Shown piece by piece: positions 43,342 through 44,634 of a stretch of DNA of 64,000 nucleotides (within the stretch, counting starts at the first letter, position 1; each line of letters opens with the position of its first letter). The DNA lies in the NCBI GenBank assembly GCA_963797555.1, contig CAWCPV010000014.1:192001-256000 (forward strand), written 5' to 3'. The notes under the pieces are model-generated. The model did not search any database. It saw only the letters and a list, made by a program, of their open reading frames with translations, and had not been told where the DNA came from. This DNA comes from an uncultured Gammaproteobacteria bacterium. Its GTDB lineage: Bacteria > Pseudomonadota > Gammaproteobacteria > CAWCPV01. Position numbers and translations under genes: made by a program.

Positions 43342-43407
43342 TGAAATGCGCCGAAGGCGCCTCAAAGTCCCCCTCGCCCGTTGGCGGGAGAGCAACCGTG
43401 TTTGCTG

Positions 43408-44362
43408 TCAAGTGCAAGAGACGAGTGCAGGGTTCCACGGTGTGCGGTTTTTGACCATGGCGTTGAGGATGGTGAGCAGCTTTCGCATACAAGCCACCAT
43501 CGCGACCTTGTGCTCTTTGCCTGCTGTCAGGCGCTGGTAGAAGAGTCTGATGACTGGATTCCAACGCACCGCAGACAGCGTGGCCATGTACAGGGCGGCG
43601 CGCAGCGCAGCGCGTCCGCCCCAGATCCTACGCTTGCCCCGGAACTTGCCGCTGTCGCAATTGAAGGGTGCCAGGCCGGCGAGGGCTGCGATGCTACGGC
43701 GATTGAGCGTGCCCAACTCCGGCAGCTGGGCAATCAGAGAGCGGGAGAGTCCCGGTCCGACTCCCGGCACGCCTTGCAGCAGATCATCCTGCTCGCGCCA
43801 CACGGGGCTGTCCTGGACGGCCTGGGTAAGGTCTTTATCGAGGTCCTTCAGGCGCTTCTCCAGCCACAGGAGGTGTGCCTGGATGTCTTTGGCGACCCCG
43901 CCGCGAAGCGCTCCCCAGGCGGTTGTGCTCGGCGGTGTGCATGTCAAGCAGTTGGCGCCTGCGTCCCAGCAGTGCCTCCAGCTCCTGGGTCTGGGCGTCC
44001 TTGAGAGGCCGCAGAGGCGGTCTGACCGCCTGGGCGAACTGGGCCAGCAGGTGTGCGTCGATGCTATCGCTCTTGGCCAATTTGCCAGTCGCCTTGGCGA
44101 AATCGCGCGTCTGGCGCGGGTTGACCACCACCACCGGGAGCTTCACGGCAGCGAGCGCCGCCGCCACAGGCACCTCCAGGCCCCCGGTGGCCTCCAGCAC
44201 GATGAGCGCTGGAGTAATGCGCTCAAGACGCTTGACCAGCACCGCCATACCCCGCGTATCGTGGCTGACCACCCAATGCTCCCCCTCAGGGCAGGTCGCG
44301 ACATCGAGGGTCTGCTTGGACACATCGATTCCGACAAACTGTTCAGCGTTGTTGGTGTTCAT
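43408..44362 (-). CDS. IS110 recombinase/transposase (apparent frameshift near 43900)
   Basis: GIDVSK, LEATG, KSDSIDA (DEDD); [27 protein letters not shown]. Confidence 0.9.
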
Positions 44363-44530
44363 GGCTCTGGCTCCCAACCTTGCAGATACGGGCTCACTGA
44401 CCCAGGCAACCGTTCGGGTTACTCAGAGATGATGGACCTGACGACCCAAGCTCTCCCACGGTGTTTCCCACCCAGGGCAAGGACGATCTGCCAGGTCCTG
44501 AACCTCTCTCACTTTAAATCTCCACTATCC
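44363..44530 (-). ncRNA. predicted bridge RNA of the IS110
   Basis: contains sequences matching the donor (ACGGTTGC, TGCAAG) and the target (CCTTGCCCT, GGGAGAG). Confidence 0.7.
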
Positions 44531-44634
44531 ATAAACATACAAGGGTTAGGGTGAGGGAAACCGGCCATGGCGTGACAAACGTTTTCATGTTCTGGGGCGG
44601 CGAAGCTCGCCAGGACCGGTTAGGCTACTCCTTT

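What the first reader, a model, noticed from the sequence alone, without database searches (positions are those of the whole stretch)
43365..44557. IS621-like IS110 whose bridge-RNA guides can be read and explain its REP insertion site
Seen (minus strand): donor junction ACGGTTG-CT-TGTA and insertion site CCTAACC-CT-CTCCC inside a REP-like palindrome. The non-coding end carries CCTTGCCCT (44482-44474; 7/9 match to left target plus core), GGGAGAG (44457-44451; exact complement of CTCTCCC), ACGGTTGC (44413-44406; left donor) and TGCAAG (44384-44379; right donor with one wobble), in the expected order. Circularisation would join TTGACA, 17 nt, TATGTT into a promoter. Established: IS110 bridge RNA mechanism. 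Inference: a natural bridge recombinase programmed for CCTTGCCCTCTCCC that tolerated two mismatches here.
Basis: partly seen in the sequence, partly recalled or inferred. Interest (0 to 1): 0.72.

Follow-up and report, generated by a model that had tools for sequence, protein, structure and literature searches.

The report
IS110 element with readable bridge RNA
This is a decayed copy of an IS110-family jumping gene whose own small guide RNA spells out both the element's ends and the repeated intergenic site it landed in, a correct reading of a mechanism already described for this family.

Summary
Window 44541-43393 (minus strand) is a 1,149-bp IS110-group element flanked by a CT core on each side. 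Its recombinase gene is frameshifted. A 95%-identical second copy elsewhere on the contig has an intact 318-aa gene, which matches the solved IS621 and ISCro4 transposases.

The 179-nt left end matches a covariance model built only from 33 distant relatives (97 bits, E 1e-23).

Across 160 relatives from genomes and metagenomes, the loop positions track each element's own flanks and ends far better than those of other families. A "handshake" base also covaries.

Three points qualify the reading:
- In this clade the first two left-target-guide positions match flanks only at chance level. The left half therefore fits site 1 at 5 of 7 effective positions.
- Whether the two mismatches reflect tolerance or later drift cannot be told.
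- Copy 2 sits at a non-repeat site that fits copy 1's guides 13/14 but fits its own altered guide poorly.

REP targeting, guide reading and the circle-junction promoter are all published for IS110. This is a new member of a known kind.

The parts
43393..44541 (-). IS110-group insertion sequence proper (1,149 bp), copy 1
   Evidence: Boundaries come from comparing copy 1 with copy 2 and with the uninterrupted paralogue of the flanks at C14:3330-3450. The own-genome DNA search found 2 full copies.
44542..44543 (-). Left copy of the CT core dinucleotide
   Evidence: CT follows the right end in all 62 relatives in which that end was located.
43391..43392 (-). Right copy of the CT core dinucleotide
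44544..44550 (-). Left target flank (LT) CCTAACC
   Evidence: It is part of the repeated intergenic unit.
43366..43390 (-). Right target flank (RT) CTCCCG... and the remainder of the short imperfect palindrome of the repeat unit (CCCG-loop-CGGG, ...GAGGG)
   Evidence: The right half of the unit has 11 hits in the genome at <=4 substitutions.
44363..44541 (-). Left non-coding end (179 nt) encoding the bridge RNA
   Evidence: Covariance model R1 hits 44368-44505(-) at 97 bits, E 1.2e-23, covering model positions 1-137.
44434..44498 (-). Target-binding loop module. Outer stem 44498-44485 with 44446-44434; inner hairpin 44472-44460; the two loop strands lie between them.
   Evidence: Consensus structure of 33 relatives and the R1 alignment.
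44474..44482 (-). Left target guide (LTG) CCUUGCCCU, 5' strand of the target-binding loop
   Evidence: position from the R1 alignment. It matches site 1 at 7/9 and the outer junction of site 2 at 8/9.
44451..44457 (-). Right target guide (RTG) GGGAGAG, 3' strand of the target-binding loop. It can be extended by U(44458) and G(44459) to pair with CTCTCCCGC using one G-U pair.
   Evidence: It is the exact reverse complement of core plus RT at both copies and at the C15 relic.
44450..44450 (-). Handshake guide of the target-binding loop (C), complementary to the last base of the right end (G)
   Evidence: C with G in 72 of 72 unique rows with a located right end, no variation. The concept comes from Hiraizumi 2024.
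44373..44418 (-). Donor-binding loop module. Outer stem CCC 44418-44416 with GGG 44375-44373; inner hairpin 44403-44390.
44406..44413 (-). Left donor guide (LDG) ACGGUUGC. It equals the last 7 nt of the right end plus the first core base; the next base is C, not U.
   Evidence: It covaries with the right end in relatives: ACAGTTG, ACGGTTG and ACAGCTG each match their own end. An 8-nt LDG is what was seen in IS621.
44379..44387 (-). Right donor guide (RDG) AU-cu-G-CAAG facing CT+TGTAT of the left end
   Evidence: The same discontiguous 9-on-7 pattern is described for IS621. The assignment here is by analogy.
44378..44378 (-). Handshake guide of the donor-binding loop (G), complementary to the last LT base (C)
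   Evidence: Among the genome-set site/guide combinations this base is Watson-Crick with LT position 7 in 40 of 49, against 19.9 expected if independent.
43406..43411 (-). -35 hexamer TTGACA in the right end, overlapping the stop codon
   Evidence: TTGACA sits at the same fixed distance from the core in 60 of 73 metagenome relatives with a located right end.
44534..44539 (-). -10 hexamer TATGTT in the left end. It lies 17 nt from the -35 only after end-to-end joining.
   Evidence: TATCTT, TATGTT, TATATT or TATAAT occupies this place in relatives. No sigma-70-like site is found in the integrated arrangement 43250-44750.
43835..44362 (-). Recombinase N-terminal part (DEDD/RuvC-like domain), running out of frame after about residue 153
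   Evidence: PF01548 E 1.1e-23; ORF list.
43408..43947 (-). Recombinase C-terminal part (Tnp domain with the SG motif) in another frame
   Evidence: PF02371 E 1.1e-17. There is a one-nucleotide length difference from copy 2 near 43904.

Best explanation
Window 43393-44541(-) is a copy of an IS110-group (IS621-like) insertion sequence, now non-autonomous.

How it works, following the IS110 model:
- The element excises as a circle. Joining its right end to its left end across one CT creates a sigma-70 promoter (TTGACA, 17 nt, TATGTT).
- That promoter drives a ~160-180-nt bridge RNA from the left end, together with the DEDD/Ser recombinase.
- The RNA has two stem / internal-loop / hairpin modules.
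- The first loop carries the target guides. LTG CCUUGCCCU has the sense of the left flank plus CT; RTG GGGAGAG is the antisense of CT plus the right flank.
- The second loop carries the donor guides. LDG is ACGGUUGC; RDG is AU..G.CAAG.
- One handshake base follows each right-hand guide.
- The recombinase tetramer then exchanges strands at the CT of the donor and the CT of a site resembling (NN)TTGCC-CT-CTCCC(G). That sequence occurs in the 5' arm of a short palindrome inside a ~110-bp repeated intergenic unit of this genome.

Shown here: the anatomy, homology of the RNA and the protein to relatives, the loop placement, and covariation of guides with flanks and ends across relatives.

Inferred by analogy with IS621 experiments: that the RNA is made, that it binds the recombinase, and that it directed this insertion.

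Copy 1 cannot move on its own because its recombinase gene is frameshifted. The two internal left-side mismatches may be tolerated mismatches, later mutations, or the trace of guidance by another copy's RNA.
For: Protein:
- PF01548 and PF02371 lie on the two ORF pieces.
- Intact copy 2 scores 227.7 bits on NF033542, 'IS110 family RNA-guided transposase' (cut-off 140).
- It matches the PDB IS621 transposase at E 2.3e-44 and ISCro4 at E 4.3e-46 over residues 8-311. The GID, EATG, DxxD and SG motifs are aligned identically (residue roles).

RNA:
- In a MAFFT alignment of 33 relatives (our copies excluded), 96.2% of cells are paired against 86.2% in shuffles, and 17 of 24 pairs show changes on both sides. 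0 of 500 shuffles reach these values, and slid controls pair at <=45.5%.
- Model R1 hits the window at 97 bits (E 1.2e-23) and copy 2 at 89 bits. There are only these 2 hits in the own genome. It also hits 79 of 80 metagenome loci.

Donor guide:
- The LDG 7-mer recurs exactly downstream of the ORF, followed by CT, in 62 of 80 genome relatives. Three variants each match their own end.

Target guides, own element versus other families:

| Set (call) | Guide | Own mean | Own at threshold | Cross mean | Cross at threshold |
|---|---|---|---|---|---|
| Genome (25) | LT, of 9 | 6.85 | 32/47 at >=7 | 4.13 | 56/2036 at >=7 |
| Genome (25) | RT, of 7 | 6.40 | 30/47 at 7 | 4.29 | 8/2036 at 7 |
| Metagenome (42) | LT, of 9 | 6.22 | 38/65 at >=7 | 4.25 | 151/4622 at >=7 |
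| Metagenome (42) | RT, of 7 | 6.65 | 53/68 at 7 | 3.67 | 8/4787 at 7 |

Handshake base: it pairs with LT position 7 in 40/49 combinations against 19.9 expected.

This genome:
- RTG matches 7/7 at copy 1, at copy 2 and at the C15 relic.
- Site 1 fits the 14-mer at 12/14. Site 2, a non-repeat site, fits at 13/14 with copy 1's guides.
- Only 120 of 10,691,478 genome positions fit with <=2 mismatches.

Promoter: the halves sit at a fixed distance in relatives, and no sigma-70-like site is found in the integrated state.
Against: - The single-sequence fold of 44363-44540(-) is no better than shuffles (z -0.75; 44 of 200 shuffles fold as well). Its minimum-energy structure pairs LTG with RTG instead of leaving them open.
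- Rfam 15 has no family that matches (best E 8-10), so no published bridge-RNA model was compared directly.
- In this clade LTG positions 1-2 match flanks at chance level (0.20 and 0.25). Copy 1's left half therefore fits at only 5 of 7 effective positions, or 3 of 5 non-core positions, which alone is not significant.
- Copy 2's own LTG (UCCCUGCCU) fits its own left flank at 5/9 at the outer junction, and about 3/9 by eye at the inner junction (strings). A copy's present guide therefore need not explain its present site.
- The second core base of the LDG is C, not U. This is also the commonest state among relatives.
- There is no expression, circle or empty-site evidence for this element.
- Only two full copies and one relic exist, so the target preference rests on 2.5 sites.
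Confidence: 0.9

Rival explanations
1. Same element and same RNA, but the two LT mismatches at site 1 are not tolerated mismatches. They would arise either from mutation of the guide or the flank after insertion, or because the insertion was directed in trans by a different copy's RNA, for example one reading ..TAGCC or ..TAACC.
For: - Both copies are old and decayed. They are 91-94% identical outside an identical tract, and copy 1 is frameshifted.
- Copy 2's LTG has demonstrably changed (one substitution and a 1-nt deletion relative to copy 1) and no longer fits its own site.
- The unoccupied repeat units read CCTAGCC, CCCAGCC or CCAAGCC. Each differs from the guide at the same internal positions.
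- IS621 tolerates mismatches poorly in screens (Durrant 2024, passage read).
Against: - Natural IS110 guide/target pairs show 0-2 mismatches 'in most cases' (Durrant 2024).
- In the relatives here, 7/9 is the commonest LT score (18 of 47; 24 of 65).
- No copy with a better-fitting LTG exists in this assembly, which is 84.6% complete.
Confidence: 0.5
2. The repeated strings are DNA-level recognition sites (subterminal repeats bound by the transposase), and target choice is made by the protein. The left-end RNA structure would be a leader with another role.
For: The LDG/LD identity is a direct repeat within the element. As such it could serve as a protein-binding site.
Against: - It does not explain why loop positions track the flanking host DNA across families.
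- It does not explain why the strings sit in internal loops of a helix-covarying RNA structure.
- IS621 experiments and structures show RNA-DNA pairing at exactly these positions.
Confidence: 0.03
3. The matches in this window are chance similarities in G+C-rich sequence.
For: The left half fits at only 3 of 5 non-core effective positions. The single-sequence fold is unremarkable.
Against: - Model hit at E 1.2e-23.
- An exact 7-mer and an exact 8-mer at the homologous loop positions.
- The same RT at three independent junctions.
- Cross-family controls.
Confidence: 0.01

Closest known systems
IS621 of Escherichia coli (IS110 group), recombinase plus 177-nt bridge RNA (Durrant et al. 2024, PMC11208160; Hiraizumi et al. 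2024, PMC11208158)
   Same: - Same protein family, full-length match at E 2.3e-44, with the GID/EATG/DxxD/SG motifs aligned.
- The RNA is encoded in the left end.
- Two internal loops with LTG/RTG and LDG/RDG in the same order and strand sense.
- CT core; left end starting TGTAT.
- 8-nt LDG; discontiguous RDG with a G-T wobble; handshake bases.
- -35 in the right end and -10 in the left end.
- Insertion into repeated palindromic intergenic units.
   Different: - Only distantly related. The protein match is strong but far from identical, and the nearest relatives found are 53-68% identical MAG and metagenome elements.
- The RTG is 7 nt (up to 9), not 4.
- The effective LTG is 5+2 nt, not 7+2.
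- The host is an uncultured soil-type bacterium with 65% G+C.
- This copy's recombinase gene is broken.
- No direct RNA-to-RNA model comparison with IS621 could be made, because there is no Rfam family and no IS621 sequence was in hand.
ISCro4 transposase (PDB 9t56)
   Same: Best solved-structure match, E 4.3e-46 over residues 8-311.
   Different: Known to me here only as a PDB molecule name. Its RNA and targets were not examined.
ISPpu9 / ISPpu10 of Pseudomonas putida, REP-targeting IS110 elements (PMC12288879, search listing only; 10.64898/2026.03.19.712850, abstract and outline read)
   Same: IS110 elements that insert into one conserved, repeated intergenic sequence with a GC-rich stem-loop next to the guide-matched site.
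   Different: - For ISPpu10 the stem-loop is a 5' extension reported to be a second specificity determinant.
- Here the short palindrome overlaps and follows the core.
- One of the two full copies (copy 2) sits at a site without it.
- The repeat unit as a whole does not fold better than shuffles (z -0.27).
IS1111 group (bridge/seek RNA in the right end)
   Same: DEDD/Ser recombinase and RNA-guided target choice.
   Different: Here the left end is 179 nt and the right non-coding end is about 15 nt. The RNA lies upstream of the gene, which is the IS110-group arrangement, not the IS1111 one.

Membership tests
IS110 family, IS110 group (bridge-RNA-guided insertion sequences) | [quoted passage not shown] | tested here: met
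   both domains are present in copy 1, on two frames; intact copy 2 scores NF033542 at 227.7 bits against a cut-off of 140.
IS110 family, IS110 group (bridge-RNA-guided insertion sequences) | Catalytic residues equivalent to IS621 D11, E60, D102, D105 and S241 | tested here: met
   in copy 2, GID, EATG, D..D (KSDSIDA) and SG align with identical residues of the IS621 chain. Mapping the numbers to alignment columns is my own count (the chain index appears to be the native number plus 2).
IS110 family, IS110 group (bridge-RNA-guided insertion sequences) | No long terminal inverted repeats; a short core (CT) present once at each junction; left non-coding end much longer than the right | tested here: met
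   CT at both junctions, left end 179 nt, right end about 15 nt after the stop codon.
IS110 family, IS110 group (bridge-RNA-guided insertion sequences) | Structured non-coding RNA in the left end with two stem / internal-loop / hairpin modules | tested here: met
   covariation in 33 relatives; full-length model hit at 97 bits. Not met by the single-sequence fold alone.
IS110 family, IS110 group (bridge-RNA-guided insertion sequences) | First-loop strands match the left flank plus core (sense) and core plus right flank (antisense) | tested here: met
   RTG 7/7; LTG 7/9 (5/7 effective) at site 1. The relatives' own pairs far exceed cross-family pairs.
IS110 family, IS110 group (bridge-RNA-guided insertion sequences) | Second-loop strands match the right end plus core (sense) and core plus left end (antisense, discontiguous) | tested here: met
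   LDG 8/8, covarying in relatives. The RDG fits the IS621 pattern, but it is invariant among relatives, so there is no covariation test for it.
IS110 family, IS110 group (bridge-RNA-guided insertion sequences) | Promoter reconstituted across the right-end/left-end junction of the circle | tested here: met
   By sequence only. TTGACA, 17 nt, TATGTT. The halves are conserved at a fixed distance in relatives. No such site is found in the integrated state.
IS110 family, IS110 group (bridge-RNA-guided insertion sequences) | Circle formation, RNA expression and binding, and RNA-dependent recombination | not testable with these tools
   No RNA run holds the stretch. The contigs of four DNA runs show no circle or empty-site joint. 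Neither result counts as evidence either way.
Rfam-curated bridge RNA family | A match above the gathering score to a curated model | tested here: not met
   no hit better than E 8 in 43000-45000. None of the four weak hits (sX15, SMAD5-AS1_3, aceE-II, ALIL) is a bridge-RNA family.

The most novel reading that the evidence does not exclude
The two copies may form a natural split and retargeted system.

- Copy 1 keeps a bridge RNA that fits the known insertion sites, but its recombinase gene is dead.
- Copy 2 keeps the recombinase, but a substitution and a 1-nt deletion have rewritten its left target guide to UCCCUGCCU.
- The 13-mer predicted by copy 2's guides, CCCTGC-CT-CTCCC, has exactly one perfect match in the genome. 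That match is an unoccupied variant of the same repeat unit, at C16:141779.

If this is functional, it would be a caught-in-the-act example of guide evolution by indel tracking a variant of the target repeat. It would also be a case of trans-complementation between decayed copies. The 13-nt near-duplicate of the left end at copy 2's junction could then be the scar of a half-match insertion next to an earlier remnant.
Probability: 0.12. Interest if true: 0.45.

Novelty: new member of a known kind. Interest (0 to 1): 0.25.

Why it matters
The finding shows that a bridge RNA's four guides, and its two handshake bases, can be read directly from raw sequence in an uncultured, high-G+C lineage. It also shows that they account for where the element sits.

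That is useful for annotation, and it adds one more natural guide/target pair with a 7-nt right target guide. It does not change the understanding of the mechanism. REP targeting, guide-target concordance with 0-2 mismatches, the junction promoter and the prediction of bridge RNAs in most IS110 elements are all in Durrant et al. 2024 (passages read).

Three modest extras may interest people who mine natural bridge systems:
- the chance-level match of LTG positions 1-2 in this clade;
- the clear handshake-base covariation;
- a pair of copies whose guides have diverged.

Tried and rejected
- **Rfam 15 on 43000-45000 at E<=10.** Four weak, unrelated hits; no bridge-RNA family to compare with.
- **Single-sequence fold.** z -0.75, uninformative.
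- **Direct comparison with the IS621 RNA.** Not possible. I had no IS621 nucleotide sequence from a tool and did not type one from memory.
- **More copies of this exact element.**
  - Own genome: 2 copies plus 1 relic.
  - 40 held relatives: all are only 'same class', and the best match is 65-68% identity. Most of those hits come from the unpublished genome G039, on which no claim here rests.
  - Genome contigs: best 63% amino-acid identity.
  - Metagenome contigs: best 68%.
  - So no further insertion sites of this element were found.
- **Public runs.** No RNA holder is listed. Four soil-metagenome DNA runs of one study hold 21-37% of the sampled words.
- **Laying their contigs.** Short low-depth contigs, several identical to the window. 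Two bridge the left junction (records 4 and 11) and one ends at the right core (record 1). No joint for an empty site or a circle. The runs may be the assembly's own source, so nothing is concluded from them.
- **Repeat unit as a known RNA.** Only ylbH leader at E 0.48, rejected.
- **Repeat unit as a strong hairpin.** z -0.27, rejected for the unit as a whole. Only the short CCCTC.CCCG/CGGG.GAGGG palindrome remains.
- **Handshake covariation in the metagenome set.** 64/68 against 62.1 expected. There is almost no variation, so no power. The genome set carries the signal.
- **Rows dropped before the counts.**
  - of the 80 loci, in 6 my regular expression found no LDG, in 7 it picked a wrong string, and in 5 the right end lay off the locus.
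  - 14 loci (L017 and the Nitrospinales-type family L028-L052) had no loop anchor within the first 110 nt of their longer left end. Loci lacking a located right or left end were also dropped. This left 47 unique relative rows. One search shows 5-9 of 9 LT matches for the dropped Nitrospinales-type family.
  - of the 79 metagenome loci with a model hit, 2 (L175, L135) were dropped because the hit is cut before the target-binding loop, and duplicates were collapsed from 77 rows to 73. LT was known in 65 and RT in 68. The left boundary was taken as the nearest CT followed by TGTAT, a heuristic that assumes the conserved left-end start.
- **Papers.** The supplements of the papers were not seen. 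Durrant's Supplementary Data 2 and Tables 1 and 5 may already list relatives of this element.
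Full report
**What is in the sequence**

Read on the minus strand, the left flank ends CCTAACC (44550-44544). It is followed by CT (44543-44542), and the element starts TGTATGTTTATGG at 44541. The element ends ACACGGTTG at 43393, followed by CT (43392-43391) and the right flank CTCCCGCCAACGGGCGAGGGGGA. The element proper is therefore 43393-44541 (1,149 bp).

The left non-coding end is 179 nt (44541-44363), and the coding sequence starts at 44362.

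The recombinase gene is split between two frames. PF01548 lies on ORF 44377..43835 and PF02371 on ORF 43947..43408.

**Other copies and the target**

The own genome (5.35 Mb, 20 contigs, 84.6% complete) holds a second copy at C14:361800-362949, 95% identical, with an intact 318-aa ORF (P0001). Relative to it, copy 1 is one nucleotide longer near window 43904.

A relic on C15 keeps a 90-nt internal piece and the last ~48 nt of the right end. That end is again followed by CT-CTCCCGCAAGCGGGCGAGGGGGA.

The flanks of copy 1 belong to a ~110-bp repeated intergenic unit:
- An uninterrupted paralogue at C14:3330-3450 reads ...CCCTCACCCCCAGCC-CT-CTCCCGCCAGCGGGCGAGGGGGA....
- The right half of the unit has 11 hits at <=4 substitutions. 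Two are occupied by this element's right end and nine are not.
- A looser pattern for the core finds 15 unoccupied sites.
- The core CT lies in the 5' arm of a short imperfect palindrome (CCCTC.CCCG-loop-CGGG.GAGGG).
- The unit as a whole does not fold better than shuffles (z -0.27).

Copy 2 is not in such a unit. It sits just upstream of an OmpA-family gene, at ...GACCTTCCC-CT / CT-CTCCCGATCTC....

**The protein**

- P0001 scores 227.7 bits on NCBIfam NF033542, 'IS110 family RNA-guided transposase' (cut-off 140).
- It matches two solved proteins over residues 8-311: ISCro4 transposase at E 4.3e-46 and IS621 transposase at E 2.3e-44.
- In the printed alignment the motifs GID, EATG, D..D and SG are identical to IS621's.
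- Hiraizumi et al. (PMC11208158, passages read) name D11, E60, D102, D105 and S241 as the catalytic residues. My mapping of those numbers onto the alignment columns is a count, not a tool result.

**The RNA**

Rfam 15 has nothing for this region. The single-sequence fold is unremarkable (z -0.75) and pairs the two target guides with each other. That is expected, since both contain the core and the target is partly self-similar.

I therefore collected relatives: 80 loci from genome contigs (53-63% amino-acid identity; Dehalococcoidia, Nitrospira, Nitrospinales, cyanobacteria and others) and 80 from metagenome contigs (<=68%).

A MAFFT alignment of 33 non-redundant left ends, with our two copies excluded (A1), gives an RNAalifold consensus of two modules. 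Each module has an outer stem, an internal loop and an inner hairpin. On that alignment:
- 96.2% of cells are paired, against 86.2% in shuffles.
- 17 of 24 pairs carry changes on both sides, against 9.1 in shuffles.
- 0 of 500 shuffles reach the observed values on any of the five measures.
- Sliding the partners by 1-3 columns drops pairing to 33-46%.

A covariance model built from A1 (R1) gives these results:
- It hits window 44368-44505(-) over its full length at 97 bits, E 1.2e-23.
- It hits copy 2 at 89 bits.
- The next hit in the window has E 0.61.
- The own genome has only these two hits.
- 79 of 80 metagenome loci have a hit directly upstream of the gene.

- CCUUGCCCU on the 5' strand of the first internal loop;
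- GGGAGAG on its 3' strand;
- ACGGUUGC on the 5' strand of the second loop;
- ..UGCAAG on its 3' strand.

The 'guides in internal loops' test is passed on the family structure.

**Do the loops read the DNA?**

Durrant et al. (PMC11208160, passages read) state the strand sense. [quoted passage not shown] The donor guides are analogous.

Donor side:
- In 62 of 80 genome relatives the 7-mer at the LDG position recurs exactly, downstream of the ORF and followed by CT.
- Three variants (ACAGTTG, ACGGTTG, ACAGCTG) each match their own end.
- Of the other 18 loci, 6 had no LDG found by my pattern, 7 had a wrong pick, and 5 had the end off the locus.

Target side, genome set (47 unique relative rows; the dropped rows are listed under Tried and rejected):
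- Own LT matches average 6.85 of 9, with 32/47 at >=7. Cross-family pairs average 4.13, with 56/2036 at >=7.
- Own RT matches average 6.40 of 7, with 30/47 perfect. Cross-family pairs average 4.29, with 8/2036 perfect.

Target side, metagenome set, with guide positions taken from the model alignment rather than by eye:
- LT averages 6.22 against 4.25, with 38/65 against 151/4622 at >=7.
- RT averages 6.65 against 3.67, with 53/68 against 8/4787 perfect.
- Per position, LTG positions 1 and 2 match only 0.20 and 0.25 of the time. Positions 3-9 match 0.72-0.97. All seven RTG positions match >=0.90.

In this clade the programmed site is therefore 5 nt, CT, then 5 nt. This differs from IS621's 7-CT-2. 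Durrant et al. already note longer RTGs in some orthologues.

**Finer features shared with IS621**

- IS621's LDG is 8 nt (A123-C130). It covers the seven end bases and only the first core base. Here the match is likewise 8 nt, and the ninth base is C, as it most often is among the relatives.
- IS621's RDG pairs as AU, two flipped-out bases, a G-T wobble, then CAAG. Here AU-CU-G-CAAG (44387-44379) faces CT-TGTAT in the same way. This reading is by analogy, because both the RDG and the left-end start are invariant among relatives.
- The handshake guides are also readable. The base after the RTG is C, facing the last right-end base G (72 of 72 unique rows with a located right end, no variation).
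- The base after CAAG is G, facing the last LT base C.
- In the genome set this second handshake base is Watson-Crick with LT position 7 in 40 of 49 rows, against 19.9 expected if independent. T goes with A and A goes with T in whole families.
- The metagenome set has too little variation to test this (64/68 against 62.1 expected).

**How well the guides explain the sites in this genome**

The RTG (7/7, extendable to 9 with one G-U pair) fits all three junctions.

With copy 1's LTG:
- Site 1 fits 7/9, but only 5/7 over the effective positions. The mismatches are at positions 4 and 5.
- The outer junction of site 2 fits 8/9.
- The commonest empty repeat units (CCTAGCC-CT) fit 8/9.

Genome-wide, the 14-mer has 0 exact matches, 11 one-mismatch matches and 109 two-mismatch matches in 10,691,478 positions. 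Five of the 11 one-mismatch sites are repeat-unit cores. Two insertions landing in that set by chance is very unlikely.

Copy 2's own LTG differs from copy 1's by one substitution and a 1-nt deletion, giving UCCCUGCCU. It fits its own flank poorly, 5/9. A copy's present guide therefore need not match its present site. For that reason I cannot tell tolerance from drift at site 1.

**Promoter**

- The right end carries TTGACA (43411-43406, overlapping the stop codon).
- Thirteen further right-end bases, the CT, and the first TG of the left end make a 17-nt spacer before TATGTT (44539-44534).
- Among metagenome relatives with a located right end, TTGACA is at the same distance in 60 of 73.
- The left-end hexamer in relatives is TATCTT, TATGTT, TATATT or TATAAT. 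This is partly by construction, because I anchored on TGTAT.
- The integrated arrangement 43250-44750 has no sigma-70-like site.
- Durrant et al. describe this junction promoter for the family.

**Comparison with what is known, and verdict**

Everything defining an IS110-group bridge-RNA element that can be tested from sequence is met. Activity cannot be tested here.

The following are all in print:
- REP-type targets;
- guide/target concordance with 0-2 mismatches;
- longer RTGs in some orthologues;
- handshake guides;
- the junction promoter;
- prediction of bridge RNAs in 85.7% of IS110 elements.

The finding is correct and neatly read, but it is a new member of a known kind, in a decayed state.

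The most novel reading still open concerns copy 2's rewritten guide. Its predicted 13-mer has exactly one perfect genome match, an unoccupied variant repeat unit at C16:141779. From base composition I estimate about 0.7 such matches by chance. It is a lead, not a result.

No further copies, RNA evidence or circle evidence could be obtained.

Noticed in passing
L002:1490-1515 (= G000 C14:361787-361812), left junction of copy 2: The first 13 nt of the left end occur twice in tandem with 3 differences (TGTATGTTCATCT then TGTATGTTTATGG). This gives two possible junctions: CCTTCCC-CT outside and TGTTCAT-CT inside. It could be a slippage duplication. It could also be the scar of an earlier copy followed by a right-half-only ('half-match', abstract read) insertion. 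Unexplained.
   Followed up: partly
L002:1559-1567 (copy 2 LTG) and G000 C16:141779: Copy 2's left target guide differs from copy 1's by one substitution and a 1-nt deletion. Its predicted 13-mer target has exactly one perfect match in the genome, an unoccupied variant of the same repeat unit.
   Followed up: partly
window 44389-43947 (element nt 153-595) compared with copy 2: The two copies are identical over 443 nt (the end of the RNA plus the N-terminal half of the gene). They are 91-94% identical on either side (63 differences in all). This mosaic suggests gene conversion or recombination between copies.
   Followed up: partly
L003 / G000 C15:33766-33921: A relic of a related copy. It keeps a 90-nt internal piece (84% identical) fused to the last ~48 nt of the right end (92% identical), followed by CT and a repeat unit. 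No left end or bridge RNA is present.
   Followed up: partly
G000 C4:368626, C7:404759, C7:398598, C7:404783 and others: The motif CCCTCACCC(T/C)A(G/A)CCCTCTCCC also occurs in at least two other repeat contexts, with different right halves (...TGAGGGAGAGGGGATTTTTTCACA and ...CCATAAGGGGGCGAGGGGATATAT). Two of these carry the exact 14-mer of site 1, unoccupied.
   Followed up: no
G000, many contigs (e.g. C4:57333, C4:135670, C5:119195, C6:123007, C8:47201, C9:198301): An unrelated repeat with near-identical context, CTCACCGACTT(T/C)-CACTGGCTCTCCC-GCGCCCGCCTCAAGACCGCCCG, turned up many times among the two-mismatch hits of the copy 2 motif scan (output partly cut). It is probably the end of another multi-copy element.
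   Followed up: no
window 45186-45767 (+): A fragment of a Tn5/IS4-type transposase (PF01609 E 3e-07 and PF02281 E 7.7e-07). Only the C-terminal part matches, in one of several overlapping frames, so it is probably another decayed insertion sequence about 650 bp from this one.
   Followed up: no
A2 / (relatives): In this clade, LTG positions 1-2 match flanks at chance level. The second core base of the LTG is G rather than U in 15 of 73 metagenome rows, and the second core base of the LDG is most often C. These look like conserved non-pairing positions.
   Followed up: partly
window 42831-43256 (-) and 44635-45321 (-): The neighbours of the insertion are an SRPBCC/polyketide-cyclase-like protein (PF10604, E 4.9e-20) downstream and a 228-aa ORF with no Pfam hit upstream. 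The element sits in the intergenic repeat between them.
   Followed up: no
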